A program made the position numbers and the translations under genes. From the NCBI GenBank assembly GCA_039029135.1, contig JBCCGT010000002.1, positions 86,714 to 150,713 of the forward strand: a stretch of 64,000 nt of DNA, in the 5' to 3' direction. Of this stretch, positions 8,201 to 41,227 are shown one piece after another. The notes beneath the pieces were generated by a model, which was not told the DNA's origin, did no database searches, and was given only the letters and a program-made list of their open reading frames with translations. The DNA is from Pseudomonadota bacterium (GTDB lineage: Bacteria; Pseudomonadota; Gammaproteobacteria; Pseudomonadales; Azotimanducaceae). How positions within the stretch are numbered: the stretch's first letter is position 1; each line of letters starts with the position of its first letter.

Positions 8201-11200
8201 GCGCGGCGCCGGCCTCGCGCAGGCGGCGCGGACCGTCATCAAGCAGTGGCCAGAGGCGATCTTCAGCGCCCGGGCGCGAGGCATCCTGAGCGCGCTCTAC
8301 GAACCCTGGCACACGCCGATCGACCTCGCGGTAAGCAACCTCTCCGACAGCCTGCGCGAACTGCTGGCCAGCCGCGACTACGAGTTTGCCGGCCTGCTGC
8401 TGCACTGGTTCGCGAGCAACGCGATGCTGCGCGGCACCGATCTGACCTCGCTCGCGCGACGCTTGAAGGCGCACATGGAACAGCTCGCCGACTTCGGCGA
8501 GATCACCAACGTTGCAGCGGTGTTTCACCTCGAGCGGATCATTCAAAGCTATATCGGCGACAAGCTCGACGCGGGCGCCGAGGTGGTGCAGCCGCTGTTC
8601 GAAGACGTGCCGCAGATCGACAACCCCGCTGACCGGCTGACCCGCGCAACCATCTACTGCCAGCGGGCATACTACGCGGTGATCTTCAACGATCCGGACG
8701 GCGCCCGCGAGATCCTGCCCGCCGCGCGAGAGTACGCCGACGCGCTCATTGGATCGCCGCTGCTCATCCAGCTCGCGTTCTGCGAAGCGCTGGTGGAGGA
8801 CGGATCCAGGCGCCGTCGCGCCATCCGCAGGCTGAGCCGCTGGGCGCGCGAGACGCCGTTCGCTCGGCCGAAGAGCCAGATCGTGCTGGCCGAGGCGCGC
8901 TGGCGCGCGGGCGATCGCAACGGCGCGCTGGAGCTCTTTGAGGCCGCGGCCGCCAGCGCCCGCGAGTTGAGTCTGGTGAACGACGAGGCGCTCGCCTACG
9001 AGCGCGCGGCGCGGCGCTGCGATAGCGAAGGGCGTCGCGATTTTCTGCGCCTGTTCGCCCACAGCGCGCACCGCGCGTACATGCGCTGGGGAGCCGTGGC
9101 GAAACTGACGCAGTTCGAGGAGGCGTTCAGTGCGGCGCTGCGTGAGGCCGGGCGCGACCCCAGCCGCGGCCTGGCAGACATCAGCGACCTCACCGTGCGC
9201 GACTTCCACAGTCACTCGCACACCTACCACAGCCAGGAATTCAACGAGCGGCTGCTCGATACGACGACGGTGCTGCGCGCAGCCCAGGCGCTGTCCGGCG
9301 AGATTCGACTGGACCACGTGCTTGAGAAGCTGCTCGGTCTGACGCTGGAGCACGCGGGCGCGCAGAAGGCGGCCATGCTCCTCAGCACCGAGGGACGTCT
9401 GTATCTGGAGGCGGTCGCCTCCGTGGACTCGGAGCACACTCGGCGGATCAACCCACCGATCCCGATGGAGGCCTCCAGCGAAGTGCCGTTGAACATCGTG
9501 CAGTTTGTCAGCCGCACCAAGCAGGTGCTGGTGCTGGGCGATGCGACCCAGGACGATGCCTTCGTCCAGGATGCCTACATCGCCCGTAACAAACCGCTGT
9601 CGGTACTGTGTCTGCCAATCCTGCATCGGGGCGAGCTGACCGGCGCCCTCTACGTCGAGCACCGCTGGCTATCGGAGGTCTTCACGGAACAGCGCGTCGA
9701 GGTCCTGAGCCTGCTGTCTTCCCAGGCCGCGATATCGATCGAGAACGCACGCCTGTACGGCGACCTGCAGGGCGCTCGCGACGACTACCGCACGCTGTAC
9801 GACAACGCGATCGAGGGGCTGTTTCGAATCTCGCCCCAGGGTGCGCTGCTGCGCGCGAACCCGACGCTGGCGACGCTGCTCGGTTTCGAAAGCGTGGACG
9901 GGCTGTTGCGCGAGTATCGCGACCTGCTGGACAACGTGTTTCTCGAGCAGGATAGATCGCAGGAGTTCATGCGCCGACTGGACGAGACGACCAGCGTCAC
10001 CGCCTTCGAGGCCAAGGCCGTGACGCGCGACGGGCGAGAGTTCTGGATGTCGATCGCCGCGCGCCTGACCGAGGAGCAGGATGTCGGCGAGTACATCGAC
10101 GGCTCGATCATCGACATCACCTCACGCATCGAAAGCGAGCAGGCCGAGAAACAGCGTCAGATCGCGGAGGCCGCCACCCAGGCGAAGAGCGAATTCCTGG
10201 CCAACATGAGCCACGAGATTCGCACGCCGATGAACGCCATCATCGGCTTCTCCGAGCTCACGCTCGACACCGATCTCGATCGCCAGCAGCGCGAGTACAT
10301 CGGCTCTATCAAGCGGGCCAGCGAATCGCTGCTCAGCCTGGTGAACGACGTGCTGGATTTCTCGAAGATCGAGGCCGGCAAGCTCGACCTAGAGCACACG
10401 CCGTTCAAGCTCGATGCGTCGCTGGAGGAACTGCAGCGACTGTTCCGCACCGAGCTGCACAAGAAGAAGCTGCCGCTCGTGGTGCGTAATCACGCCCTGG
10501 CCCACGCGGCCTATCCACAAAACGGCGTGCTGCTGGGTGACTCCCTGCGCCTGCAGCAGGTGCTGGTCAATCTCGTCAGCAACGCGCTGAAGTTCACGGA
10601 GGACGGCGAGATCAGCATCGACGTCGAGTTCGTGGACGCCTTTCCCGACGCGCGCGGCGAAGAGCGCCTGCGGCTGCGTTTCCGCGTTAGCGATACCGGC
10701 ATCGGGATCGCGCCGGAGCAGCAGGCCCGGCTGTTTGACTCCTTCGAGCAGGCCGAGTCGTCGACCACGCGCGAATACGGCGGCACGGGGCTCGGCCTGT
10801 CGATCTGCAAACGCCTGGTCGAGATGATGGGCGGCGAGATCAGCGTGACCTCGGAGGTCGAGCACGGTAGCTGCTTCGCGTTCAGCGCGGTCTTTGGCAA
10901 GGGCAAGGCGGAGATCGAGCGCGGCACGCCGCGCGCGAAGACGCGCGACCGGAGCGCGGCGCTGTTTGCCAATCGGCGCGTGCTGCTCGCCGAAGACAAT
11001 CCAATAAACCAGCAGCTCGCGCTCGCGTTCCTGCAGCGCGCCGGCGCCACCGTTGACATCGCGGAGACCGGTCGGCAGGCCATGGCGCGGGCGGTGGCGA
11101 ACGCGTACGACCTGATCCTGATGGATATCCGCATGCCCGAGATGGATGGCCTGGCCGCCACCCGCAGCCTGCGCGAACAGGGGCTGGAGACGCCGATCAT

Positions 11201-11798
11201 CGCCGTGTCGGCGGACGCGATCGGCGAGCGTCGCAGCAGCGCGATCGACGCCGGCTGCAACGGCTACGTCACGAAGCCCATCGACTTCGACACGCTGCTC
11301 GCCGAGTGCAGCGAGCACATGGGTGTCGATCTGGCAGAAACACCGCGGCGGCGCGCCACCGACAACGCGGTCGAAGAGCTCGCGGAAGAGCCGTCGGCCG
11401 CCGGTGCCGCGATGCGCGTTCCGGGCATCGACGTCGGCCAGGCGATTCGCAATCACAACGACAACGTCAAGCTCATGCTGAAGCTGATGGGCGACTTCCC
11501 GCGCTACTACGGCGACGCGGGCACGCGCATGCGCGCGCACATCGTCAACGGCGAAATCGAGGAGGCCGAGCGACTGGCCCACAACCTGCGCGGGGTCGCC
11601 GGCTCGTTCGGCGCGGTCGACCTGCAGGAGGCGTCAAAGACGCTGGAGCTCGCGCTCGCGGACGGCGAAGAGACCAACCTGCTGGGGCTCGCGAACAGTT
11701 TCGCCGTCGCGCTGACAGAAGTGCTGGAGGGCGCGGAATCCCTCGCGAGCAAGGAAATCCCGCTGCGCGCGAGCGACTTTAGTGAGGATGCGTCCTGA
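5283..11798 (+). CDS. giant multidomain sensor: Ser/Thr protein kinase, AAA (P-loop) ATPase, helical repeats, GAF, PAS, HisKA, HATPase_c, REC and Hpt
   Basis: 2171 aa. Kinase motifs: [40 protein letters not shown]-loop GPRGVGKQS (nt 6411-6437). GAF around nt 9255-9770. H-box SHEIRTPMN (His codon 10212-10214). G2 box [17 protein letters not shown] motif [13 protein letters not shown] (Asp codon 11124-11126). Hpt motif [12 protein letters not shown] (His codon 11580-11582). Confidence 0.9.
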
Positions 11799-21430: not shown

Positions 21431-22231
21431 ATGCTCGTCATCATCTCGCCGGCCAAACGCCTGGATTTCGACACGCCAACCCCTCGCGCCATCGTCCCGA
21501 AGGCGACGCAGCCGGAGTTCATGGAGGATGCCGAGACGCTCGTTAAGACGCTGCGCGACTACACGCCGCGACGCCTGACCAACCTGATGGGCATCTCCAA
21601 GGATCTAGCGACGCTGAACCAGGAGCGCTACGCCGCTTGGCGCGCGCCGTTCACGCCCGACGACGCCAAGCCAGCCATGCTCGCGTTCAAGGGCGATGTG
21701 TATCTGGGGCTGCAGGCGGGACAGCTCGGCACCCGCGATCTGAACTGGGCGCAGAAGAACGTGCGTATCCTCTCTGGCCTGCACGGCGTGCTGCGTCCAC
21801 TCGACCTGATGCAGCCGTACCGCCTGGAAATGGGTACGGCGCTAAAGACCGGTCGCGGCAAAGACCTCTACCAGTTTTGGGATGACCGCGTTACCCATAC
21901 GCTCAACGCGGTCCTCGAAGGCCGCCGCAGCAAGGTGATTGTGAACCTCGCATCGAACGAGTACTTCGGCGTCGTCCAACCGGCCAAGCTGGCCGGGCGC
22001 CTGCTGAACGTGCGCTTCGAAGACCTGAACAAGGGCAAGTACAAGGTGCTGAGCTTCTTCGCGAAGAAAGCGCGCGGCATGATGACGCGCTACGTTATCG
22101 ACAAGCGAATCAGCGCCCCGCGCGGCTTGCTCGACTTCGACTATGGCGGTTACTACTACGCTGAGGCAGCATCCAGCGACGACACGCTCGTGTTCCGCCG
22201 CGACGGCGTCGATGCCCCGGCCAGCGCCTGA
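21431..22231 (+). CDS. yaaA: peroxide stress protein YaaA (UPF0246)
   Basis: N-terminus MLVIISPAKRLDF compares with E. coli YaaA MLILISPAKTLDY. Length 266 aa. Confidence 0.85.
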   Translation: MLVIISPAKRLDFDTPTPRAIVPKATQPEFMEDAETLVKTLRDYTPRRLTNLMGISKDLATLNQERYAAWRAPFTPDDAKPAMLAFKGDVYLGLQAGQLGTRDLNWAQKNVRILSGLHGVLRPLDLMQPYRLEMGTALKTGRGKDLYQFWDDRVTHTLNAVLEGRRSKVIVNLASNEYFGVVQPAKLAGRLLNVRFEDLNKGKYKVLSFFAKKARGMMTRYVIDKRISAPRGLLDFDYGGYYYAEAASSDDTLVFRRDGVDAPASA

Positions 22232-23406: not shown

Positions 23407-24024
23407 ATGACGACGCTATATGGAGTTTCGGGATCGCGCGCGATCCGTTCGATCTGGGCCATCGAGGAAGTCGGCATCGACTACGAGCACGTGCCCACCC
23501 ACTTCTTCAACGACTCCAAGACCGAGGACTACCTCGCGATTAATCCCAACGGTCGCATCCCGACGCTGCAGGACGACGGGCCCGACGGTCCGATCACCCT
23601 GTGCGAGTCCATGGCGATCAACCTATACCTGGCCAAGCACTACGGGGGCGATCTGTACCCGGCGACCGCGGCCGACGAGGCCCTGGCCTGGCAGTGGAGC
23701 GTGTGGGCGATCTCCGAGATCGAACCGCTGCAGATGCAGATCGTGGTCCAAAAGCTGTTTACGCCGGAAGAGAAACGCAATCCCAAGGTCATCGCCGGCG
23801 CCGAAAAGGGACTGCGGCGGCCGCTGGGCGTCCTGGACGCGCATCTGGCCAAGCGTGACTGGCTGCTAGGCGATGCCTTCACGGTTGCGGACCTCAACGT
23901 CGCGGCGGTCATGCTGCTGTTCGACATGATCGAGCTGGATACCAGCGACTTCAGCGGTGTGTCCCGCTGGCGTAGCACGTGCGGCGCGCGCCCGGCGCTG
24001 GCCCGCGCGCAGGCGAAGGCGTGA
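23407..24024 (+). CDS. glutathione S-transferase family protein
   Basis: 205 aa. GST N-terminal thioredoxin-like fold (INPNGRIPTL...ESMAINLYL) and a helical C-terminal domain. Confidence 0.75.
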   Translation: MTTLYGVSGSRAIRSIWAIEEVGIDYEHVPTHFFNDSKTEDYLAINPNGRIPTLQDDGPDGPITLCESMAINLYLAKHYGGDLYPATAADEALAWQWSVWAISEIEPLQMQIVVQKLFTPEEKRNPKVIAGAEKGLRRPLGVLDAHLAKRDWLLGDAFTVADLNVAAVMLLFDMIELDTSDFSGVSRWRSTCGARPALARAQAKA

Positions 24025-25184: not shown

Positions 25185-25607
25185 CCGAACGCCGCGCACG
25201 CGGACGGCACGCGGCGCCGTCTGCGCCAGCAGTCCAGGGACAGATGCCGGGCGTTAGGGGCCTCTAGGCGTTGTGCTCTGCCAACACTGTCTCTTTGCCT
25301 GGTTGGTTCAACCAGCCAACTCTTGAGCGATCTGACCAGCCGCCGAACGGCGCGGCCAAATTCGCTTACCTAGTTTTTTCCTAATGTTTTCAGCCGTTTG
25401 CAACCCACCGTCCGTGCCTGCAGCGGCTGGCACGATTCCTGATTCAGGCCTTGGAGCGCGCCCGAGACGCGGGCCCGCCGGCCGGCGCAACCCAGCCGTT
25501 CGGCACGCAACAGGACAGCGTTAAGTATCGGTACAGGCGGCCCACATAAGGTGGCGCGTCTGGCCTACCGCCATGGAAGGCGCCAAGAAGGTGCAAAGGA
25601 GCTCGGT

Positions 25608-28600
25608 GTGATTCAGACGTTCGCCCGCCACCCGGTAGCCGCCAATCTGACCATGGTGCTGATGATCATGGCCGGCGTCTGGGCGCTCAAGGGCATGCCC
25701 ACCCAGCTCGACCCACCGGCGAACCTGCCGCTGATCTGGGTGGAGGTGTCGTGGCGCGGCGCAAGCGCAGAGGATCTGGAGACGCTGGTCACCCGACCCA
25801 TCGAGCAACAGCTGCGCAATCTGCAGGCGCTGCGCGAGCTGCGCTCGTACACCGTCAACGGCTTTACCCGCATCAACGTCTGGTTCGAATACGACGCCGA
25901 CCGCGGCATGGCGCTCGACGACGTAAAGCAGAAGGTCGCGAACATTCGCAACCTGCCGGGTGACATCGAACCCCCGGTGGTGCGCCCATTCGTGGACCTG
26001 GAGCCGGTCGCCAGCGTGATCGTCACGGCGCCCGGCGAGCTGGCCGAGATGCTGCCGCTGGTGCGCCGCCTGGAGCGGGACCTGCTGCAGCGCGGCGTGG
26101 AACAGGTCACCTTCGACGGCCTGCCGGACGAAGAGATCGCGCTGCTCGTGTCCGGCCAGCGCCTGCAGCAGATGGGCATGAGCCTGGAGGCGTTCGCGGC
26201 CGCCGTGGCCGCGGTCAGCCAGAACGTGCCCGCAGGCACGCTCGGCGTCGGCCAGGGTTCGGTCCAGCTACGCAGCCTCGACCAGCGCCGCGACACCGAC
26301 GGCTTCAACGATCTCGAGCTGGCGATCGGCGAGCGCGTGTACCGTCTGGGCGAGCTCGCCGAGGCGCAGCGGCGCGGCGTGCCCGGTCAGCCCGAGCTGA
26401 GGAAAAACGGTCAGGCGGCCATCGAGATGCAGATCTGGCGCGACGTGTCGGGCGACGCGCTGGCGGCGAATCGCGTTCTCGAGGCGTGGCTGCAGGAGAC
26501 GACGCCAACCCTGCCCGCAGGCGTCGCGCTAAGCATCGACTTGAAGGTCTGGGACATGCTCGGCGCGCAGCTCGGCATGATCCTCAAGAACGGCATGTCC
26601 GGCATGCTGCTGGTCGTGGCCGTGCTTTTCGTGTTCCTGAACGGCCGCACCGCGTGGTGGGTGACCGCCGGCATACCCGTGAGTTTTCTGCTCGCGCTCG
26701 CTTTGCTCTACAGCGGCTTCGGCTACGGGATCAGCATCATCGCTCTAATCGGTCTGATCATGGCGCTGGGGATCGTGGTCGACGACGCCATCGTTGTCGG
26801 CGAGGAGATCGTCACCCAGTTCGAGGCGGGCAAGTCCGCCGAGGCGGCCGCAATAGACGGCGCACGACGCATGTGGGCACCCGTCGCCACCTCGTCGCTC
26901 ACTACCCTCGCCGCCTTCGGCCCGATCATCGCCGTCGGCGGCGTGCTTGGTCCGATGGTGCTCGCCCTGCCCACGGTCCTGCTGTGCGTGATCGTCGCCT
27001 CGCTCATCGAGTGCTTCCTGGTGTTGCCCGGGCACCTGCGCTCGGCGCTAGCACGCACGACGTCGCAGAAGAAGGTCGGCCGCCGCGAGCGTTTCATCCA
27101 GGGCTTCTATCGCTTTCGCGACGATCGCTTCATCCCCGCCGTCCGACTCGCGCTGCGCTATCCGGGCGCGACGCTGACCTGCGCGATCGGCGGGGTCGTA
27201 CTGGCCGCCAGCCTCATTGCTAGCGGCCACGTGGGCTTCAATCTGACCGTCGGTTTCGATTTCGAGTCCATTACCGCGGACGCCGAGTTCGCCGCGAGCG
27301 CGACGCCCGAGCAGCGCGAGCGCTTCGTCGCCCACCTGGAGCAGACGCTCAGCGAGGTCAACGAGGAACTCGCGGCAGACAACGGCCGCCGCAACGTCAC
27401 GGGCTGGACCGTGAAACACAACGCGGCCAGCTTCAATCAGGAACGCGTCACCGGCAAACAGTATGTGTCGCTGCAGGCCGCCTACGCGTTCGAGGAGCAG
27501 CGCTCGGCCGACCCAGCGGCGTTCGAGACCCTGTGGCGGGCCCGCGTGACGCGTCCGCACTACGTCGAGCGCTTCGTGCTCGCCGTGGCGGGTGGCGCCG
27601 GCGGTGGTGATCCGGAAATCAATCTCGTCCTGCGCGGCGACGACACGGCCTCGCTGAAGCGCGGCGCGCAGGAGCTGATCGGCGCCCTGCAGGGCTACGC
27701 GGGCGTTTCAAACGTCATCGACAATCTGCCCTACGGTAAGGAGCAGATCATCTTCTCGCTCACGCCGACGGGTCGCTCACTAGGTCTTTCGGCCCAGGAG
27801 GTAGGCCGCCAGCTACGCGCCGCCTACGCCGGCGCGCGCGTGCAGATCTTCAACGAGGACAATGCCGAGATCGAAGTCCGCGTGCTCTTGCACGACGACG
27901 AGCGACGCGACATCGGTCAACTCCGACGGTTTCCGATCGAGACGGCGGGCGGCTTCGTTGCCCTCGGCAGCATCGCCGAGCTGCACAACCGACGCGGCAT
28001 CGACACGATTCGCCATCACAACGGCCAGATGTCGGTGGCGGTTTCCGCCGACGTCGACACCTCGGTCGCGAATGCGCTGACGATCATCAACGGCGTCAAG
28101 GCCGACGCGCTGCCCGCGATCCTGGACCGGCACGGGCTGCAGTTCGATCTCGGCGGCCGCTCACGGCAGGACGCTCAGATGCTGGACACCATGGCGCTGG
28201 GCGCCGTGCTGACCCTGGTGCTGATCTATCTGATCCTCGCGTGGGCGTTTTCCTCCTACCTGTGGCCCTTCGCCATCATGCTGGCCATACCGTTTGGCTT
28301 TACCGGCGCCGTCTTCGGTCACTGGGTCATGGGCTGGGACTTCGGCGCCATGTCGCTGCTCGCGTTCATGGCGCTCACGGGGATCGTGGTGAACGATTCC
28401 ATCGTCCTGATCAGCGTGCTGCGCGAACGCCTGCGCGACGGCAGCGACATGACCAGCGCGCTGCTCGATGCCGTGCGCTCACGGTTTCGCGCCGTCGTGC
28501 TGACGTCCCTGACGACCGTCGCGGGACTCGCGCCGCTGTTGCTCGAAGACTCGAGTCTCGACCTGTTCTTCACGCCGATCGCGATCACGCTGTGTTTCGG

Positions 28601-28754
28601 GCTGTCGTTCGCAACGCTGCTGGTGCTGATCGTAATTCCCACGATGCTGCTGCAGCTCGAGCGCGCCAAGTCCTGGGGCCGGGCGTTCACAGCCCGCGCC
28701 AAGGCGGGCGTCCCATCACCTTTCGCAACACCAAATTCTGGAGTAAGCCGATGA
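25608..28754 (+). CDS. RND efflux transporter permease (AcrB/AcrD/AcrF family)
   Basis: The GTG at 25608 is preceded by AAGGAG (25596-25601). About 1048 aa. Two 6-TM bundles with large periplasmic loops and typical motifs (LGIVVDDAIVV, GIVVNDSIVLI). Confidence 0.85.
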   Translation: MIQTFARHPVAANLTMVLMIMAGVWALKGMPTQLDPPANLPLIWVEVSWRGASAEDLETLVTRPIEQQLRNLQALRELRSYTVNGFTRINVWFEYDADRGMALDDVKQKVANIRNLPGDIEPPVVRPFVDLEPVASVIVTAPGELAEMLPLVRRLERDLLQRGVEQVTFDGLPDEEIALLVSGQRLQQMGMSLEAFAAAVAAVSQNVPAGTLGVGQGSVQLRSLDQRRDTDGFNDLELAIGERVYRLGELAEAQRRGVPGQPELRKNGQAAIEMQIWRDVSGDALAANRVLEAWLQETTPTLPAGVALSIDLKVWDMLGAQLGMILKNGMSGMLLVVAVLFVFLNGRTAWWVTAGIPVSFLLALALLYSGFGYGISIIALIGLIMALGIVVDDAIVVGEEIVTQFEAGKSAEAAAIDGARRMWAPVATSSLTTLAAFGPIIAVGGVLGPMVLALPTVLLCVIVASLIECFLVLPGHLRSALARTTSQKKVGRRERFIQGFYRFRDDRFIPAVRLALRYPGATLTCAIGGVVLAASLIASGHVGFNLTVGFDFESITADAEFAASATPEQRERFVAHLEQTLSEVNEELAADNGRRNVTGWTVKHNAASFNQERVTGKQYVSLQAAYAFEEQRSADPAAFETLWRARVTRPHYVERFVLAVAGGAGGGDPEINLVLRGDDTASLKRGAQELIGALQGYAGVSNVIDNLPYGKEQIIFSLTPTGRSLGLSAQEVGRQLRAAYAGARVQIFNEDNAEIEVRVLLHDDERRDIGQLRRFPIETAGGFVALGSIAELHNRRGIDTIRHHNGQMSVAVSADVDTSVANALTIINGVKADALPAILDRHGLQFDLGGRSRQDAQMLDTMALGAVLTLVLIYLILAWAFSSYLWPFAIMLAIPFGFTGAVFGHWVMGWDFGAMSLLAFMALTGIVVNDSIVLISVLRERLRDGSDMTSALLDAVRSRFRAVVLTSLTTVAGLAPLLLEDSSLDLFFTPIAITLCFGLSFATLLVLIVIPTMLLQLERAKSWGRAFTARAKAGVPSPFATPNSGVSR

Positions 28755-30166
28755 CGTCCCCGGAAGCAGGCATCGCCGATCCACGCCCGGACAACCAAGG
28801 GCGCGCGCGGCCGGTATGGATCAGCGCGGGCATCGTTGCGGCGACTCTGACCCTCAGCGCGCTGATTTTCGTGACCGGTCCCGACAACGCGCCGACGCCG
28901 CCGGAGGAAAAGGCCTGGTCCGTCTCGACCATGCTGGTGGATCCGCGACCGGCGACGCCCAGCTTTACGGGCTACGGACGCGTGCATTCACGCGCCATGG
29001 CCAAGCTGACCTCCGACATCTCCGCGACGGTAGCGGCGGTGCACGCCGAGGAAGGGCAACAAGCCGCGGCAGGCGCGCTCCTGGTGCAGCTCGACCCCAG
29101 CCAGTTTCGGCTCTCAGTCGCCGAACGCGAGGCTGAGCTAGCACAGCGCCAGGCTAATCTCGCGAGCGTCGAGTCCGAGCTGCTGCTCGCGCGGCGTACC
29201 GACAAACAGCACGCATCCATGCAGCGCATCGCCCGCGCAAAGCAGGCGCGACACGAGCAGCTGTTGCGCGATCGTCTGATTAGCCGCGCCCTGTACGACG
29301 AGGTGGCGCAGGCGACAAGTCAGGTCGACATCGAGTTTCAGCGCCACAAGCAGCAGCTCACACAGCTCCCGCATCGGGTGGCTGCCGCCAAGGCGGAAGT
29401 GAGACGCGCCGAGGCGCAGCTCGATAGCGCCCGCATCGACCTGTCAAAAACCGAGCTGCGTGCCCCGTTTGCCGGGCCCGTCACCGCGGTCAACGCGGCC
29501 GTGGGTGACCGCATGCTGCCCGGAGCCGTGCTCGTCGAGATGGCCGACGACGATGCGTTCGAGCTGCGGGTGCCGATTCCAGACACCTACATCGCGCAGA
29601 TTCGCGGCGCGCTGGACGCCGGCGGTGAGGTCGCGGGCACCAGCCGGCTGGGCATCACCAAGCTGACGCGGATGGCCTCGGTCGTGGCGCCCGGCCAGTC
29701 CGGGCTCGACGGTTTTTTCGCCATCGGCAACGCGACCGAGCGACGCCCGGCGGTGGGTCAGATCGTCGAGGTCAGCGTCGCGCTGCCCATCATCCAGGGC
29801 ACCGTGGCGCTACCCCCGCAGGCCCTGTATGAAAACCGCCGCGTCTACGCCGTGGTGGATGACCGCCTGCAGGCGCTGCCGGTAGAGCGGGTCGGCGAGA
29901 CGCGCGACAACCAGGGCAACTATCGGGTGCTGGTCCGATCCCGGGCGCTCGCCCGGCACGCCGAGATCATCACAACCCAGCTCCCCGCTGCGATGCCCGG
30001 CCTGCTGGTGCAGCCCAGCCGCGACGCCACCAATCTCGTCTTCAGCGGCGACGGCGAGGAAGGGGCACCGCAACTGGACGACGCGCGGCTGACGCTCGAG
30101 CCGCCCGAGGCGGAGCCAAGCAGCACGGGTCGCAACGCCGGGACCCCCGCAACTCGACCATCGTGA
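28751..30166 (+). CDS. efflux periplasmic adaptor (HlyD/MFP family)
   Basis: The ATG at 28751 overlaps the RND stop (ATGA). N-terminal TM anchor, a coiled-coil hairpin segment, and the lipoyl-like motif [16 protein letters not shown]. Confidence 0.75.
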
Positions 30167-30203: not shown

Positions 30204-30815
30204 ATGGCAAAGAGCTTCACCAGCACCGTCGTCGGTCTGCTGAGCCTGTTTACACTCACCGCGTGCAGCGGCGAGACCGAGCAGGCGAGCGCGCAGGCAG
30301 CAAGCGCCGCGCCGACCCCAGCCGCGGCCCAGGCCGCAGCGGCGCCGCCGGCCGCGGACCCGCAGGTGGGGTCGAGCGCGCCGGACTTCGCGCTGCCGGG
30401 GTCCGACGGCAAGACGCACCGCCTCAGCGACTACGCCGGTCGCCACGTCGTGGTCGCGTTCTTCCCTAAGGCCTTCACCGGGGGCTGAACTCTGCAATGC
30501 AAGGCGCTGCGTGACAGTGACCAGGAAATTCGCAACTTCGACGTCGCCTACTTTATGGCGAGCACCGATTCACTCGCGGACAACACGGCGTTCGCGCTCA
30601 AGAATGACGCCAGCTTTCCGATTCTCGCGGACGAAGACAAATCGGCGAGCGCGGCCTTCGGCGTGCTGGGCGGCAGCGGCTACGCGTCGCGCGTCACCTT
30701 CTATATCGATCCAACAGGGAAGATCGCCAGGATCGACCGCGCGGTGAATCCACGCACGGCAGGCGCTGATCTCGTGAGTGCCTTACAGGCGTTGGGCGTG
30801 CCCGCAGCCGGGTAG
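30204..30815 (+). CDS. Bcp/PrxQ-type peroxiredoxin lipoprotein with an in-frame TGA at the peroxidatic Cys position (candidate selenoprotein; otherwise a pseudogene)
   Basis: ORFs 30204..30488 and 30555..30815 share a frame and are separated only by the TGA at 30486-30488. Read-through gives [13 protein letters not shown][U]TLQCKALRD, versus E. coli Bcp FYPKAMTPGCTVQACGLRD. Lipobox LFTLTAC at the N-terminus. Confidence 0.6.
30492..30517 (+). promoter_or_regulatory. candidate bacterial SECIS-like stem-loop downstream of the in-frame TGA
   Basis: CUG(CA)AUGCA-AGGCGC-UGCGU(GA)CAG: a 3-bp lower stem, a 2x2 internal loop, a 5-bp upper stem including one G-U pair, and a G-rich 6-nt loop. It starts 3 nt after the UGA. 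Modest stability, and a little closer to the UGA than canonical models. Confidence 0.3.
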
Positions 30816-30887
30816 CCTCCGGTCAAGCAGAGATCGCGCCTATTGTGTGAGCTTAGGTGCGTCCGGCGCTCGCCTATGGCTTTACCT

Positions 30888-30912
30888 TATGAATGAGAAT
30901 GATTATCATTTG
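30888..30912. promoter_or_regulatory. Fur box
   Basis: The core of atGAATGAGAATGATTATCATTTGt matches the Fur consensus segment AATGATAATCATTATC at 14 of 16 positions. It lies in an AT-rich island about 80 nt upstream of the 30988 gene. Confidence 0.7.
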
Positions 30913-30987: not shown

Positions 30988-32157
30988 ATGGAACGATCGC
31001 TGCTGCGCTTCAGACTGCTCGGCCCGGTGACGAATGCCGTGAACCTTCACGCGCGGCGGCTGTTCGCCCGCTACCTGACCGGTCTAACGGCAGCTCTCAG
31101 CGCCATAGCGCTGCTCGCCATGCCCTGCCACGCTGACGAGCGTCAGTACACATTCTCTTGGCAGTTCGAACAGGACGCGGCACTCAAGCCACGCGGGGGC
31201 ACCACCCGCGGCGGCCCGCTGACGCTCGCGACGTCACCCTCGGCCGCCTACCAGCGGCTTGCGGCCGCGCGGGACGCCGGCAAGAGCGCCAAGGTCCTCG
31301 ACCGACTCGCGATCCTGGCCATGGCTGGCGACTACCGGGCGAGCTTCGACTTTCTGGAAACCATCGGCTACACGGCGGACTACAACCCGTCACAGCCCTA
31401 TCAGTCCTGGGGCACCGAGCGGGTTTACGTGCTGGTCGACGAACCGGAGCGTGTCGAGCTGCAGCACGTGCTGGTCATGCAGATGCGCAACAAGGACGGC
31501 AGCCTCACGGAACCCATGGCTATGAAACATTGGCGCCAGGCCTGGCGCTATGAGGATCGGGATCTGCACACCTACCGCGGCGCTCGCAACTGGGAACATC
31601 GCCGCCTCAGCCGCGGCGCCGCCCGCAGCCGCTGGACCCAGGCCGTGTTCCAGGTCGACGATTCTCCGCGCTACGAGGCAAGCGGCCGCTGGACACACGA
31701 CCACGGCGTCTCGAGCTGGACCAGCGACACCACCTGGAGGCCGCTGCCGCGACGCGAACACAGCGTCCGCAAGGACTATCAGGTGCTGATCGGCACCAAT
31801 ACGCACATCATTAACCCGACCGGCTGGGTGCAGCGGGAAAGCAACCGCAAAGTGGTACTGGACGCTGACGGACAACCGTTAACGACCCTCGCCGCCGAAG
31901 AGGGCCTCAATCGCTACGAGCGCCTAGACGGCTTCGACTTCGCGGCCGGCGATCTATATCTGCAGAAGACCGGCTCCTACTGGGCCGCCGTGCGCGACTA
32001 CTGGGACACGACACTGGATCAGCGACGCGACTTTCGACTCGCGAGCCAGGTGGACGGCATGCCGCTCTTCGCCGCGATGTTCGCGGCGGCCGAGGCCGGG
32101 AGCGACGCCGCGTCCCCGGCCAGCGCCATCGCGCCCTACCTGGAACTCGCCAGGTGA
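30988..32157 (+). CDS. uncharacterised secreted protein, predicted Fur-regulated
   Basis: 389 aa. Signal-like YLTGLTAALSAIALLAMPCHA. Trp/Arg/Asp-rich mature part. I recognised no catalytic motif. Confidence 0.6.
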   Translation: MERSLLRFRLLGPVTNAVNLHARRLFARYLTGLTAALSAIALLAMPCHADERQYTFSWQFEQDAALKPRGGTTRGGPLTLATSPSAAYQRLAAARDAGKSAKVLDRLAILAMAGDYRASFDFLETIGYTADYNPSQPYQSWGTERVYVLVDEPERVELQHVLVMQMRNKDGSLTEPMAMKHWRQAWRYEDRDLHTYRGARNWEHRRLSRGAARSRWTQAVFQVDDSPRYEASGRWTHDHGVSSWTSDTTWRPLPRREHSVRKDYQVLIGTNTHIINPTGWVQRESNRKVVLDADGQPLTTLAAEEGLNRYERLDGFDFAAGDLYLQKTGSYWAAVRDYWDTTLDQRRDFRLASQVDGMPLFAAMFAAAEAGSDAASPASAIAPYLELAR

Positions 32158-32342
32158 GGCGCGGCATCGAACCTTTAGGCCAGGCGCCCGGCCTGCAGCC
32201 CCTCAAACCCCAGCCGCACGCGCATCTCAACAAGGGCTACCAGGCACCCAAGGCGCGGTTGACGTCCGCACAGCGCGTGGCGCTGGGCTGTGGCTGGCTG
32301 CTGTTCATGGGCCTGTACATCGGGAGCTGGTGGCTCGTCTGA
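32154..32342 (+). CDS. possible small membrane protein (62 aa)
   Basis: The GTG at 32154 overlaps the preceding stop (GTGA). The C-terminus VALGCGWLLFMGLYIGSWWLV forms one TM helix. There is no homology argument. Confidence 0.3.
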   Translation: MRRGIEPLGQAPGLQPLKPQPHAHLNKGYQAPKARLTSAQRVALGCGWLLFMGLYIGSWWLV

Positions 32343-32427
32343 CCAAGCCCGAGCGGCGCCCGCCATATTCGCCACAGCGCGCTCCACGCGGGCCGCGCTC
32401 ACGCTAACCCCTTCGGGAGAAATCGTT

Positions 32428-33195
32428 TTGCCAGCCCAGTACCAGCTCACCGTCGCACACAACGATTCGCTGACGCCCCACATGCGACGCATACGTCTGA
32501 CCGGCAGCGACCTGCGCGACTTCCCGGCGGATCAGGAGAGCGGCTACGTGAAGCTGCTGGTTGAGCGCGAAGACGGCGAGACCGTGCCACGGTCGTACAC
32601 GATCCGCGCGTTCGATGCGCGCCGCGAAATGCTAACGCTCGACTTCGTCGACCACGGCGACTCCGGTCCCGCGTCCGCTTGGGCACGCCGCGCCGAGCCG
32701 GGCGCCGCGGTGACCATTCGGGGACCGGGCGAAAAGAAGCTCGCCGATCCCGCGGCCGACTGGTTCTTTCTGGCCGCCGACCTCAGCGCCCTGCCCGCGC
32801 TGGCCGTCAATCTGGAGGTCCTGCGACGCGACGCATCCGGCTACGCGATCATCGAGGTGCCGAGCCTGGATGACCGGCAGAATATCGACGCTCCGACCGG
32901 CATAGACGTCCAGTGGATCGTCAACGAGGACGCCGCCGCGCCCAACCGCGCACTGGTCGACACGGTGCTGCGGCAACCGTGGTTGGAGGGACGCGCCTAT
33001 CCGTGGTTTGCCGGCGAGTTCGACGGTATGCGCGCGCTGCGCAAGTACTTCCGCGACGAGCGCGGCATCGATCGCAAGGCCATGTATCTGAGCTGCTACT
33101 GGAAGCTGGGCGACACCGACGAGGGCATGAAAAAAGCCAAGCGCCGGGACGCGGAAAGCGACGCGCAGACGCTCACGGCCGTCGGCGCGCGCTGA
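32428..33195 (+). CDS. siderophore-interacting protein (ViuB/SIP-type ferric-siderophore reductase)
   Basis: The TTG at 32428 has GGGAGA 7 nt upstream. FAD-binding motif RSYTIRAFD. NAD(P)H-domain pattern FFLAADLSALPA...GEFDGMRALRKYF...YWKLG. Confidence 0.8.
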   Translation: MPAQYQLTVAHNDSLTPHMRRIRLTGSDLRDFPADQESGYVKLLVEREDGETVPRSYTIRAFDARREMLTLDFVDHGDSGPASAWARRAEPGAAVTIRGPGEKKLADPAADWFFLAADLSALPALAVNLEVLRRDASGYAIIEVPSLDDRQNIDAPTGIDVQWIVNEDAAAPNRALVDTVLRQPWLEGRAYPWFAGEFDGMRALRKYFRDERGIDRKAMYLSCYWKLGDTDEGMKKAKRRDAESDAQTLTAVGAR

Positions 33196-38793: not shown

Positions 38794-38820
38794 AATGATA
38801 ATGAGAATAATTACCATTTG
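38794..38820. promoter_or_regulatory. Fur box (best match in the window)
   Basis: GATAATGAGAATAATTACC (38797-38815) matches GATAATGATAATCATTATC at 16 of 19 positions. It lies about 55 nt upstream of the receptor start. Confidence 0.8.
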
Positions 38821-38872
38821 CAGTTTCATCAGCAAAGCAACTCACAAGCGACATAACCAAGGGGAAAGGTCG

Positions 38873-41227
38873 ATGGCAACACAACACCGCCACTGGTGGG
38901 CGCTCGGCTTGGCCGCCGCCTGCACCACCGCGTGGGCACAGGACGACGGCGAACGCCTGCAGGAGACCGTCATTCAGGCGGAACCCACCATTTCAATCGC
39001 GACACGCTCGCTCGGCTCGGAAGAGCTGGTGCAGCAGATGACCGATACGATCGAAGACACGGTGCGCTACATCCCTGGCGTGCAGGTCAACGACAGCGGC
39101 AACCGCTTCAACGACAACGGCTTCAACATTCGGGGTCTGGAAGGCGACTTCGTCGCCGTGACAATCGACGGCGTCGACCAGGGCGAGACCCTGAATCCGC
39201 CTTCCTTCTCTCCCTACGGCTTCTTCGGTTCCAGTCGCGGTGCAATAGAAGTGGAGACGGTCAAGGCCATCCAGGTCACCAAAGGTCCGAACTCGGTCTC
39301 GGTTGGCAACGGCGCGCTGGCGGGCGCGGTTACCTATGTAACCAAGGACCCGAGCGACTTCCTGCAGCCCGACGGCAACGACAGCGCGATCGCCATCAAG
39401 ACCGGCTACGACAGCCGCTCCGATGAGATGATGGTCAGCGCCGCGCTCGCGAACCGCGCCGGACGCGTCGAATCGCTGTTCCAGGCGACCTATCGCGACG
39501 GCCACGAGGTCGAGGCGCACGACAGCGGCGACGACATCAACGGCAGCGCCCGCGGCCAGGCCGACCCCTTCGACCGCGAAGAGCTCGCGCTGTTGGCTAA
39601 GGTCGACTTCGCCGTGCGCGACAACCACACGCTCGGCCTGGTATGGGAAAAGGTGCAGCGCGACATCGATGGCACGCCGCTGTCGAGAGAAGAAGGACCG
39701 ACCTATTTCGACTTCATCACCGACGATCTGAATGACCGTGATCGTATCGGCATCAGCTACGACATAGACGACGCGCAGCTTGGCTTCGCCGACGAGATCG
39801 CCGCGACATTCGACTATCAGTACCTGCACACCCAAGGCATCACGACCTTTGGCTTCAACTCCGCCCGCACGATGGAGCAGTTCCTGCGCCAGGAAGATCG
39901 CGCCTTCAAACAAGAGACCTACCGCGTCGGTCTCGATCTCAGTAAAGAACTGACGCTCGGCAGTCTGGAACACGAGCTCACGTACGGTATCGAGTACGAA
40001 ACTATCGAGGTCAACAACGAGCTGTTCGATAAGCGCTACGTGGGACTGACCATGGATTCGGGTGAACGGTCCTTCAACGTCGACGGCACGTGGGTCCCGG
40101 AAACCGACATCGATCGTTTCAGCCTCTATCTGCGCGATGAAGTCCGTTTCACCGATCGCGTCAGCGGATTCGCCGGGGTTCGCGTCGACAGCACGGAGTA
40201 CTCGCCGGAGGTGGATGACCGCTTCCCTGATCCGACGGGTGACACCTTATTCGACGCGGACTTTACCGCCTGGGCCGGTGAGATCGGCCTGCGCGTCGAG
40301 GTTGCCGATGGCCACAGCATCGCGGCGTCCGTCAGCCAAGGCTACAAGGCACCGACCACGCAGGATCTGTTCCTGGACGTCGGCAGCGGTTTCGTCACTG
40401 ACATCACCACCGGCAACGAGGTGCTGGACATCGAGGAAGTCTCGAATCCGGACCTGGATCCGGAGCGTTCGACCAACTACGAGCTGTCGTACCTGTTCCA
40501 GCGCGGCCGCACGCGTATCGAGCTCACGGGCTTCTTCACGGACTACGATGAGTTCATCCAGAACGTATCGGACGCCGTGCCCTACGCTCAGCCGATCACG
40601 GTACAGGAATTCAGCTTCGCCACCTTCACCTTCGTCAATGTCACCAGGACCGAAGACGCTTTCGTAAGGGCGGAAAACGTCGGTGCGGTCGAGCTGTTTG
40701 GCTTCGAACTGGACGGCCAGTTCGCATTCAACGACCAGTGGTCGGTGCGCTTCGGCTACTCTCACGTCGAGGGCGAGCACAAGTCTTCGAGCCTCAGCCA
40801 GATCAACGGGTTCCAGGATGGCGACGATCTCGTAACAGCGTCGCCGGACTCGGCTCTGCTGTCGCTGCGCTATCAGGCACCGCAAGGTAACTGGGGCGGC
40901 TCCGCCAACTTCGTCTGGACCGACGGCGTCGATGAGTCAACGGATGCGAGCTTCACGTCGCTCAACAACGGCGAAGGTCCCGTGCACTACCCCGACTCCT
41001 GGACGACGCTGGATCTGATCGGCTTCTACCAGTTCGAGCAGCTCGGCGGTCTGCGCCTCTCCGTGGCCGTGCGCAACGTCTGGGACGAAGACTATGTGCG
41101 CTGGGAAGTGATCAACGGCGTGCGTCCCGGCAACGGCGGCTTCTTCGCCGGCGCCAGCGGCAACGGCTTCGAGCGCTTCTCCGATCCCGGACGCAGCGTC
41201 TCAGTCGACCTCAGCCTGAACTTCTGA
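38873..41227 (+). CDS. TonB-dependent outer-membrane receptor (siderophore/haem type)
   Basis: The ATG at 38873 follows GGGGAAAGG. Signal peptide ...ACTTAWAQDD. Plug motifs (TVIQAEP, NIRGLEG, IEVETVKAIQVTKGPNSV) and a terminal ...SVDLSLNF. Confidence 0.9.
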   Translation: MATQHRHWWALGLAAACTTAWAQDDGERLQETVIQAEPTISIATRSLGSEELVQQMTDTIEDTVRYIPGVQVNDSGNRFNDNGFNIRGLEGDFVAVTIDGVDQGETLNPPSFSPYGFFGSSRGAIEVETVKAIQVTKGPNSVSVGNGALAGAVTYVTKDPSDFLQPDGNDSAIAIKTGYDSRSDEMMVSAALANRAGRVESLFQATYRDGHEVEAHDSGDDINGSARGQADPFDREELALLAKVDFAVRDNHTLGLVWEKVQRDIDGTPLSREEGPTYFDFITDDLNDRDRIGISYDIDDAQLGFADEIAATFDYQYLHTQGITTFGFNSARTMEQFLRQEDRAFKQETYRVGLDLSKELTLGSLEHELTYGIEYETIEVNNELFDKRYVGLTMDSGERSFNVDGTWVPETDIDRFSLYLRDEVRFTDRVSGFAGVRVDSTEYSPEVDDRFPDPTGDTLFDADFTAWAGEIGLRVEVADGHSIAASVSQGYKAPTTQDLFLDVGSGFVTDITTGNEVLDIEEVSNPDLDPERSTNYELSYLFQRGRTRIELTGFFTDYDEFIQNVSDAVPYAQPITVQEFSFATFTFVNVTRTEDAFVRAENVGAVELFGFELDGQFAFNDQWSVRFGYSHVEGEHKSSSLSQINGFQDGDDLVTASPDSALLSLRYQAPQGNWGGSANFVWTDGVDESTDASFTSLNNGEGPVHYPDSWTTLDLIGFYQFEQLGGLRLSVAVRNVWDEDYVRWEVINGVRPGNGGFFAGASGNGFERFSDPGRSVSVDLSLNF

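What the first reader, a model, noticed from the sequence alone, without database searches (positions are those of the whole stretch)
30204..30815. Peroxiredoxin lipoprotein with TGA exactly at the peroxidatic cysteine: candidate exported selenoprotein
Two track ORFs (30204..30488 and 30555..30815) lie in the same frame. A single TGA (30486-30488) separates them, with no other stop between. Read-through gives ...[14 protein letters not shown]-[TGA][17 protein letters not shown]..., which is colinear with E. coli Bcp (FYPKAMTPGCTVQACGLRD). The TGA falls on the catalytic (peroxidatic) Cys, and a resolving Cys is kept four residues later (U-x-x-x-C). A random nonsense mutation landing on this one codon is unlikely, whereas Cys-to-Sec replacement in thiol peroxidases is an established phenomenon. 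The N-terminus carries a lipobox (LFTLTAC), so the product would be an envelope-exposed selenoprotein, which is uncommon in aerobic proteobacteria. A modest stem-loop (30492-30517) follows the TGA.
Basis: partly seen in the sequence, partly recalled or inferred. Interest (0 to 1): 0.7.

Follow-up and report, generated by a model that had tools for sequence, protein, structure and literature searches.

The report
Selenocysteine peroxiredoxin lipoprotein gene, genuine
The in-frame TGA very probably encodes selenocysteine at the catalytic site of an exported peroxide-detoxifying enzyme, making this a real but ordinary new member of a selenoprotein family already known to be common in environmental bacteria.

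Summary
In detail: one ORF (30204-30815) is interrupted only by a TGA at 30486-30488, at the peroxidatic Cys of a peroxiredoxin (motif PKAFTGG-U). It is not a nonsense mutation. A genome scan whose search patterns did not cover that codon found TGA at the same position in 42 of 56 relatives (Gammaproteobacteria, Acidobacteriota, Myxococcota). All 42 keep an intact, selectively constrained downstream half.

A hairpin 15-16 nt after the TGA (30503-30522, loop CGUGA) is conserved with compensatory changes. It includes an Arg codon that is CGT in 30/30 TGA forms, against 1/5 Cys forms. Window and nearest relative are 39/39 identical from the TGA onward, against 71% on either side.

In two relatives, selA and selB lie directly upstream of the TGA-Prx gene. 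The window itself holds no Sec machinery, and the rest of its genome could not be searched.

Sec-peroxiredoxins with this PxxxTxxU motif are a known, abundant family (Sargasso Sea, GOS). Two features are particular here. One is the lipobox plus Ala/Pro linker, where relatives have ordinary signal peptides. The other is the position after an RND pump operon, which is not conserved. Verdict: interpretation supported; new member of a known kind.

The parts
30204..30815 (+). Complete selenoprotein gene: a Sec-containing peroxiredoxin precursor of 203 codons including the UGA, ending at TAG 30813-30815
   Evidence: Single frame with one internal TGA. AhpC-TSA/Redoxin match spans residues 54-185, i.e. 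both halves. Full-length homologues are 50-68% identical.
30204..30266 (+). Signal peptide with lipobox ([20 protein letters not shown]|C; the Cys to be lipidated is codon 21, 30264-30266)
   Evidence: Matches the lipoprotein pattern [^DERK]6-[LIVMFWSTAG]2-[LIVMFYSTAGCQ]-[AGS]-C, with K at position 3 (the pattern itself is recalled from PROSITE PS51257). Relatives have ordinary signal peptides instead.
30267..30359 (+). Ala/Pro/Gln-rich linker ([31 protein letters not shown]) between the lipid anchor and the Prx domain
   Evidence: Read directly from the translation. It is absent from all homologues aligned.
30465..30488 (+). Active-site motif P-KAF-T-GG-U (PxxxTxxU)
   Evidence: It matches the PxxxTxxU motif given for Sec-Prx in PMC13188914 and the TxxU motif in PMC1088965.
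30486..30488 (+). UGA codon read as selenocysteine (the peroxidatic residue, position 95)
   Evidence: Aligned with the invariant peroxidatic Cys. TGA sits at this codon in 42 of 56 related loci.
30498..30500 (+). TGC codon for Cys99, the candidate resolving Cys (U-x-x-x-C)
   Evidence: Invariant in A1 and in the gammaproteobacterial and acidobacterial TGA forms. It is absent from the Myxococcota forms.
30503..30522 (+). SECIS-like hairpin: stem GGCGCUG / CAGUG(A)CC with a bulged A, and apical loop CGUGA (30510-30514)
   Evidence: RNAalifold predicts it unaided. 96% of cells are paired, against 16-56% when the partners are slid. The closing pair is GC in 15 sequences, CG in 10 and UA in 1. The loop Arg codon is CGT in 30/30 TGA forms and 1/5 Cys forms. 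Window and L002 are 39/39 nt identical from the TGA, against 85/120 on either side. The covariance model finds a single hit in the window.
30690..30692 (+). CGC codon for the conserved active-site Arg163
   Evidence: Invariant column in A1 and retained in all TGA forms.
25551..30166 (+). Upstream RND transporter (25551-28754) and HlyD-type adaptor (28751-30166) on the same strand. The adaptor ends 37 nt before the Prx start, so co-transcription is probable.
   Evidence: Gene calls and Pfam families on the identical Logan contig; Pfam. No promoter-like or terminator-like site lies between the adaptor gene and the Prx gene. The arrangement is not conserved.

Best explanation
The gene 30204-30815 encodes a selenocysteine-containing peroxiredoxin. 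During translation, SelB carrying Sec-tRNA(Sec) recognises the hairpin 15-16 nt downstream (30503-30522, loop CGUGA) and inserts selenocysteine at UGA 30486-30488, so the ribosome goes on to make the full 203-residue precursor. The precursor is exported, cleaved at the lipobox and lipid-anchored at Cys21. This leaves the Prx domain in the periplasm on a roughly 30-residue Ala/Pro tether. There, Sec95 (held by Pro88, Thr92 and Arg163) reduces H2O2 or organic hydroperoxides and becomes a selenenic acid. Cys99 resolves it to a selenenylsulfide, and a periplasmic thioredoxin-like reductant regenerates the enzyme. What is shown: the conserved UGA, the constrained downstream reading frame, the conserved and covarying hairpin, the intact Prx catalytic residues, and the link to selA-selB in relatives. 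What is inferred: actual Sec insertion in this organism, lipidation and location, the role of Cys99, and the identity of the reductant.
For: TGA is at the peroxidatic-Cys codon. The same TGA occurs in 42 of 56 related loci from three phyla, found with peptide patterns that did not include that codon. All TGA forms keep 103-129 open codons after the TGA. Substitutions there fall mostly on third codon positions; for window vs L002 they number 8/6/21 by codon position, with 42/52 residues identical. The hairpin is predicted independently, is 96% paired, and shows compensatory GC/CG/UA changes. The synonymous third position of the loop Arg codon is T in 30/30 TGA forms and in 1/5 Cys forms. A 39-nt island of 100% identity sits within 71% flanks. 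Cys forms L013, L060 and L062 lack the hairpin. selA (TIGR00474, 564 bits) and selB (TIGR00475, 465 bits) lie directly upstream of the TGA-Prx gene in L007, and also in L009. TGA is an ordinary stop in this genome: about half of the long ORFs end in it. The identical sequence appears in an independent assembly. The PxxxTxxU motif matches the known Sec-Prx family (PMC1088965, PMC13188914).
Against: No selA, selB, selD or tRNA-Sec is present in the 64-kb window, and the rest of the source genome could not be searched. No Rfam family matches the element even at E<=10. On its own the local fold is not more stable than shuffled sequence. Two gammaproteobacterial Cys forms (L059, L061) and one myxobacterial Cys form (L043) keep the hairpin, so the hairpin alone does not prove decoding. 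The pair counts come from related sequences, so the shuffle control overstates significance. There is no direct evidence for selenium incorporation, lipidation or peroxidase activity.
Confidence: 0.88

Rival explanations
1. The gene was a selenoprotein gene, but this organism has lost or lacks the Sec-decoding machinery. The UGA now terminates translation, or is read at low level as Cys or Trp by near-cognate tRNAs, so the gene is a recently stranded pseudogene.
For: No Sec machinery is found in the window. The source genome is not in the genome collection searched (best match 70%), so its selenium trait is unknown. Gain and loss of Sec use is frequent in bacteria (PMC1794560).
Against: The hairpin and TGA are nucleotide-perfect relative to L002 (39/39), while the flanks have diverged to 71%. 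The downstream half shows purifying selection and no further stop or frameshift. Loss would have to be very recent.
Confidence: 0.07
2. An ordinary nonsense mutation (TGC to TGA) has inactivated a Cys-peroxiredoxin: a plain pseudogene whose position at the catalytic codon is coincidence.
For: TGC to TGA is a single transversion. 30 of the 203 codons are one step from a stop. All annotated protein homologues in the protein database have Cys.
Against: The same TGA is present in 42 related loci across three phyla. The protein database shows only Cys forms because gene callers truncate TGA forms. The conserved hairpin and the selA-selB linkage have no place in this model.
Confidence: 0.02
3. A sequencing or assembly error produced the TGA.
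For: The source is a metagenome-assembled genome.
Against: An independent Logan assembly of SRR22824298 gives the identical 3322 nt, including the TGA. Dozens of other assemblies have TGA at the same codon.
Confidence: 0.01
4. UGA is reassigned genome-wide (for example to Trp or Gly), and this is an ordinary sense codon.
For: None specific.
Against: About half of the long, high-GC3 ORFs in the window end in TGA. No other convincing in-frame TGA gene was found in the window. The aligned residue in homologues is always Cys.
Confidence: 0.01

Closest known systems
Sec-containing peroxiredoxin family (Prx, TxxU motif; pfam00578 / COG1225) of the Sargasso Sea and GOS selenoproteomes (PMC1088965, PMC2398784; review PMC13188914)
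   Same: It has the AhpC-TSA fold, with Sec at the peroxidatic position in PxxxTxxU. Cys homologues are far more numerous. A small hairpin with G in the apical loop follows the UGA. The family occurs in marine and environmental bacteria, including Myxococcota (Anaeromyxobacter is listed in PMC1794560).
   Different: This copy carries a lipobox and an Ala/Pro tether. The subfamily as a whole carries signal peptides, and the four selenoproteome papers consulted never mention signal peptides or the periplasm. The particular SECIS (loop CGUGA) is described here only from my own alignment.
PrxU of Eubacterium acidaminophilum (Sohling et al. 2001, cited in PMC13188914; NCBIfam NF040737 peroxi_PrxU)
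   Same: It is a peroxiredoxin with selenocysteine as the peroxidatic residue, and it has been demonstrated experimentally.
   Different: The relationship is distant: the window protein scores 54.9 bits against the PrxU model, whose cutoff is 270. By my recollection PrxU is a cytoplasmic protein of a strict anaerobe and is closer to the AhpC/Prx1 type. The window protein is exported and closest to Bcp/PrxQ.
Bcp / PrxQ thiol peroxidases (E. coli Bcp, NCBIfam NF006960; PDB 3drn Bcp of Sulfolobus)
   Same: These are the best family and structure matches. They share the PxxxTxxC active site and have a second Cys nearby in the same helix. They are thioredoxin-dependent.
   Different: The window protein falls below the equivalog cutoff (86.9 vs 140 bits). 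It has Sec instead of Cys. The spacing is U-x3-C rather than C-x4-C. It is exported and lipid-anchored rather than cytoplasmic.
E. coli fdhF SECIS / SelB recoding system
   Same: In both, UGA is followed within the coding sequence by a short hairpin whose apical loop contains G-U. Here these are G26-U27 counted from the U of UGA, against G23-U24 in fdhF by my recollection. Decoding depends on selA and selB, and both genes are found next to the gene in relatives.
   Different: The hairpin lies one codon further downstream, the bulge is an A on the 3' side rather than a U on the 5' side, and the stem is shorter. SelB binding has not been tested.

Membership tests
Sec-containing peroxiredoxin (Prx, TxxU) | AhpC-TSA / thioredoxin-fold peroxiredoxin domain | tested here: met
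   PF00578 at 1.9e-29 and 102.6 bits (cutoff 26), covering residues 55-176 and spanning the TGA.
Sec-containing peroxiredoxin (Prx, TxxU) | In-frame UGA at the peroxidatic position of PxxxTxxC/U, with the conserved Arg present | tested here: met
   P88-KAF-T92-GG-U95. R163 is invariant.
Sec-containing peroxiredoxin (Prx, TxxU) | UGA conserved in orthologues, paired with Cys in homologues, and the downstream ORF conserved | tested here: met
   42 loci have TGA and 14 have TGC among 56. The downstream part stays open for 103-129 codons. Substitutions are biased to the third codon position.
Sec-containing peroxiredoxin (Prx, TxxU) | Bacterial SECIS: a stem-loop shortly after the UGA with a small apical loop containing G | tested here: met
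   Hairpin at 30503-30522 with loop CGUGA, showing covariation and synonymous-site constraint. The criterion is as worded in PMC1088965.
Sec-containing peroxiredoxin (Prx, TxxU) | Sec-decoding genes selA, selB, selC and selD in the same genome | not testable with these tools
Relatives L007 and L009 have selA-selB adjacent to the TGA-Prx gene.
Sec-containing peroxiredoxin (Prx, TxxU) | Selenium actually incorporated; peroxidase activity | not testable with these tools
   This needs 75Se labelling, mass spectrometry and enzyme assays.
Bcp / PrxQ (NCBIfam NF006960, NF053650) | Score above the curated equivalog cutoff | tested here: not met
   86.9 bits against a cutoff of 140, and 69.5 against 260. 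It is the closest family, but the protein is not an equivalog.
Bcp / PrxQ (NCBIfam NF006960, NF053650) | Resolving Cys five residues after the peroxidatic Cys (C-x4-C) | tested here: not met
   The spacing here is U-x3-C. C99 aligns one position before the resolving position of 3drn. The C-x4-C rule is from my own knowledge.
PrxU (NCBIfam NF040737) | Score above the curated cutoff | tested here: not met
   54.9 bits against a cutoff of 270.
Bacterial lipoprotein (signal peptidase II substrate) | Basic N-region, hydrophobic core, and lipobox [LVI][ASTVI][GAS]C within residues 15-35 | tested here: met
   K3, then [11 protein letters not shown] with Cys21, matched by regular expression. No dedicated predictor was available.
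Bacterial lipoprotein (signal peptidase II substrate) | Lipidation and membrane localisation | not testable with these tools
   This is experimental. Ser at +2 would suggest outer-membrane sorting under the E. coli rule, but the rule may not hold in this organism.

The most novel reading that the evidence does not exclude
The window gene represents an undescribed exported branch of the Sec-peroxiredoxins, with its own conserved SECIS (loop CGUGA) shared between Gammaproteobacteria and Acidobacteriota. In this lineage the enzyme has become a lipid-anchored periplasmic selenoenzyme co-transcribed with an RND pump and its adaptor, so that peroxide (or lipid hydroperoxide) detoxification in the envelope is functionally coupled to efflux.
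Probability: 0.1. Interest if true: 0.5.

Novelty: new member of a known kind. Interest (0 to 1): 0.3.

Why it matters
There are two practical consequences. First, the gene is mis-annotated in public data as two fragments, or as one 94-residue stub. The same applies to dozens of related genomes, so the selenoproteomes of these Gammaproteobacteria, Acidobacteriota and Myxococcota are under-counted. Second, the subfamily is exported, which places a selenol-based peroxidase in the periplasm of presumably aerobic environmental bacteria. That raises a concrete question about which periplasmic reductant recycles a selenenylsulfide. None of this changes current understanding of Sec decoding or of peroxiredoxins.

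Tried and rejected
- Single-sequence folding of the 60 nt after the TGA gave z = +0.98. This is uninformative on its own.
- Rfam found nothing in the whole window at gathering thresholds, in 30440-30600 at E<=10, or in L007/L009.
- ARAGORN found no tRNA-Sec in the window or in any of 57 loci.
- The protein database search returned only Cys forms. This briefly suggested a pseudogene, until the DNA-level loci showed that TGA forms are simply truncated by gene callers.
- Pfam annotation of about 40 window ORFs found no SelA, SelB or SelD.
- A scan for other TGA-split ORFs in the window found only frame shadows and adjacent genes.
- RND-MFP-Prx synteny is absent from all Prx relatives and from the two closest MFP homologues. 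A conserved functional operon is therefore rejected.
- Fumarase from the window is not on record in the contig index.
- The NCBI contig of the source MAG (353 kb) could not be retrieved; only the 5.8-kb Logan contig came back.

Full report
**1. The observation**

The window has a single reading frame from ATG 30204 to TAG 30813-30815, interrupted only by TGA at 30486-30488. The translation reads [21 protein letters not shown]...[31 protein letters not shown].... With Cys put in place of the stop, Pfam AhpC-TSA (1.9e-29) and Redoxin (3.2e-23) match across both halves.

In an alignment with 21 full-length homologues, the stop falls on the peroxidatic Cys of the motif [11 protein letters not shown]. 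Pro88, Thr92, Cys99 and Arg163 are invariant. An independent Logan assembly of run SRR22824298 is 100% identical over 3322 nt, including the TGA.

Two details need correcting:
- The conserved stem-loop lies at 30503-30522, not 30492-30517.
- The second Cys gives U-x3-C, one residue closer than the Bcp-type spacing.

**2. Is it a nonsense mutation?**

The protein database returns only Cys forms, at up to 68% identity. This is a bias, because gene callers stop at TGA.

I scanned one genome per species at the DNA level, using peptide patterns that did not cover the Cys codon ([32 protein letters not shown] and others). This gave 57 related loci:
- 42 carry TGA at exactly this codon, 14 carry TGC, and one could not be placed.
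- The TGA forms come from gammaproteobacterial MAGs (Pseudomonadales, Candidatus Azotimanducaceae, Pseudohongiella), from Acidobacteriota (Vicinamibacteria) and from Myxococcota.
- Every TGA form keeps 103-129 open codons after the TGA.
- Over the 52 codons after the TGA, differences from the window fall mostly on third codon positions. Against L002 they number 8, 6 and 21 at positions 1, 2 and 3, with 42/52 residues identical. The level of conservation matches that upstream.

The downstream half is therefore translated in frame. TGA is otherwise a normal stop in this genome, and no other TGA-split gene is evident in the window.

**3. The recoding signal**

On its own, the sequence after the TGA folds no better than shuffles, and no Rfam family matches it. 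Comparison with relatives changes the picture.

In 26 distinct TGA forms from Gammaproteobacteria and Acidobacteriota, RNAalifold predicts a 6-bp hairpin at alignment columns 19-35, counted from the U of UGA. Counting pairs on that structure gives the following:
- 96% of cells are paired, against 16-56% when the 3' partners are slid.
- The pair closing the loop is G-C in 15 sequences, C-G in 10 and U-A in 1.
- Another pair alternates between G-C and G-U.

The loop is CGUGA in all 26 sequences but one. Its U is the synonymous third base of an Arg codon, which is CGT in 30/30 TGA forms but in only 1 of 5 distinct Cys forms of the same subfamily (Fisher p about 1e-4, not corrected for phylogeny).

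Window and L002 are 39/39 identical from the TGA through the hairpin, against 85/120 on each side. A covariance model built from the alignment finds exactly one hit in the 64-kb window, at the TGA. It scores held-out TGA forms at 60-71 bits and Cys forms L060, L062 and L013 at 14-22 bits.

In the window the hairpin is GGCGCUG-CGUGA-CAGUG(A)CC at 30503-30522. It begins 14 nt after the UGA and has G-U in a five-base loop. [quoted passage not shown]

The Myxococcota TGA forms have a different, stronger 8-bp hairpin at the same place (GCGUACCG-GGAY-CGGUACGC), and their Corallococcus Cys relatives lack it. Three Cys forms (L059, L061, L043) retain the hairpin. They are most simply read as recent Sec-to-Cys conversions. 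They also show that a hairpin alone does not prove decoding.

**4. Sec machinery**

The window contains no tRNA and no SelA, SelB or SelD among about 40 annotated ORFs. The source is an NCBI MAG labelled 'Pseudomonadota bacterium' (100% match of the upstream adaptor protein, 353-kb contig). It is not in the genome collection I could scan, and its contig could not be retrieved.

Two related MAG chromosomes do carry the machinery: L007 (Candidatus Azotimanducaceae) and L009 (Pseudomonadales), whose Prx is 63-64% identical to the window's. In L007, selA (TIGR00474, 564 bits, cutoff 268) and selB (TIGR00475, 465 bits, cutoff 242) lie immediately upstream of the TGA-Prx gene on the same strand; tblastn finds both genes at the matching position in L009. 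This ties the gene family to Sec decoding in the same order of bacteria. For the window's own genome the point stays untested.

**5. What it is and how it probably works**

The protein is a peroxiredoxin with Sec95 as the peroxidatic residue in the PxxxTxxU motif, with the conserved Arg163 and a nearby Cys99.

The N-terminus fits the lipoprotein rule: K3, a hydrophobic core, and L-T-A-C with Cys21. It is followed by an Ala/Pro-rich tether of about 30 residues that no relative has. Relatives carry ordinary signal peptides, so the whole subfamily is exported.

The inferred cycle is as follows:
1. The selenolate attacks peroxide and becomes a selenenic acid.
2. Cys99 forms a selenenylsulfide with it.
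3. A periplasmic thioredoxin-like reductant regenerates the enzyme.

The gene follows an RND transporter and its adaptor by 37 nt, with no promoter-like or terminator-like signal between them. This arrangement is absent from all Prx relatives and from the closest adaptor homologues, so I do not read it as a conserved functional unit.

**6. Comparison with what is known**

Sec-containing peroxiredoxins are an established selenoprotein family:
- PrxU of Eubacterium acidaminophilum was shown experimentally (cited in PMC13188914).
- It had 253 genes in 34 GOS samples (PMC2398784).
- It occurs in sequenced Deltaproteobacteria, including Anaeromyxobacter (PMC1794560).

The window gene meets every sequence-level criterion of that family. 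It is closest to Bcp/PrxQ but falls below the curated cutoffs, and it is far from the PrxU model.

The export signal of this subfamily is not mentioned in the four selenoproteome papers I searched. A further literature search found no paper that evidently describes one. Periplasmic selenoproteins as such are known, for example formate dehydrogenase N.

**7. Verdict**

The main residual doubt is that the organism's own Sec machinery could not be checked. It is a new member of a known kind. Its small particular features are the lipobox and tether, the U-x3-C spacing, and a well-defined SECIS shared across two phyla. Interest is modest (0.3).

Noticed in passing
window 30895-30910 and 38797-38812: There are two Fur-box-like 16-mers (consensus GATAATGATAATCATT, 2 mismatches each; 0 expected by chance). 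The first overlaps a promoter-like site at 30881-30909, upstream of a DUF6607 gene (30988-32157) and a siderophore-interacting protein gene (32290-33195). The second sits at the start of a TonB-dependent receptor ORF (38795-41227). The Prx gene therefore borders an apparently iron-regulated region.
   Followed up: partly
L007 1957-6462 and L009 2073-6462: A selA-selB-(TGA)Prx cluster lies on one strand in two related MAG chromosomes. In L007 an IS200/IS605-type TnpB gene (851-2098) lies just upstream. No tRNA-Sec was detected in the roughly 400-nt gap before the Prx gene.
   Followed up: partly
L059 828-881, L061 4190-4243, L043 (Hyalangium versicolor): These Cys-encoding (TGC) relatives still carry the SECIS-like hairpin (52-56 bits with the model; -15.6 kcal/mol in L043). 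This may be the footprint of recent Sec-to-Cys conversion.
   Followed up: partly
L048-L057 and L032-L034 (Myxococcota loci): The Myxococcota TGA forms use a different 8-bp hairpin (GCGUACCG-GGAY-CGGUACGC) and lack the second Cys (U-TREL). They would be 1-Cys-type Sec-peroxiredoxins with a distinct SECIS.
   Followed up: no
window 21431-22231: A YaaA peroxide-stress protein gene (PF03883, 2.2e-82) lies 8 kb upstream of the Prx gene.
   Followed up: no
window 5283-11798: A 2171-residue multidomain signalling protein combines a Ser/Thr kinase, AAA_16, GAF, PAS, HisKA, HATPase, receiver and Hpt domains in one ORF.
   Followed up: no
window 25551-30166: The RND transporter gene precedes its HlyD-type adaptor gene and overlaps it by 4 nt. 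No outer-membrane factor gene follows; the Prx lipoprotein gene takes that position. Homologous pumps in L065 and L066 have the same RND-then-adaptor order but different downstream genes (holA-lptE; DsbA-MOSC).
   Followed up: partly
L007 about 5830-5900: A T-rich tandem repeat (TTTTTTACCAAC, several copies) lies in the leader just upstream of the TGA-Prx start codon.
   Followed up: no
L010, L012, L014, L017, L019, L062/L063: In the Pseudohongiella-type loci, and in one Cys-form locus, a glutathione S-transferase gene lies next to or near the Prx gene. The window has a GST gene 6 kb upstream (23407-24024).
   Followed up: no
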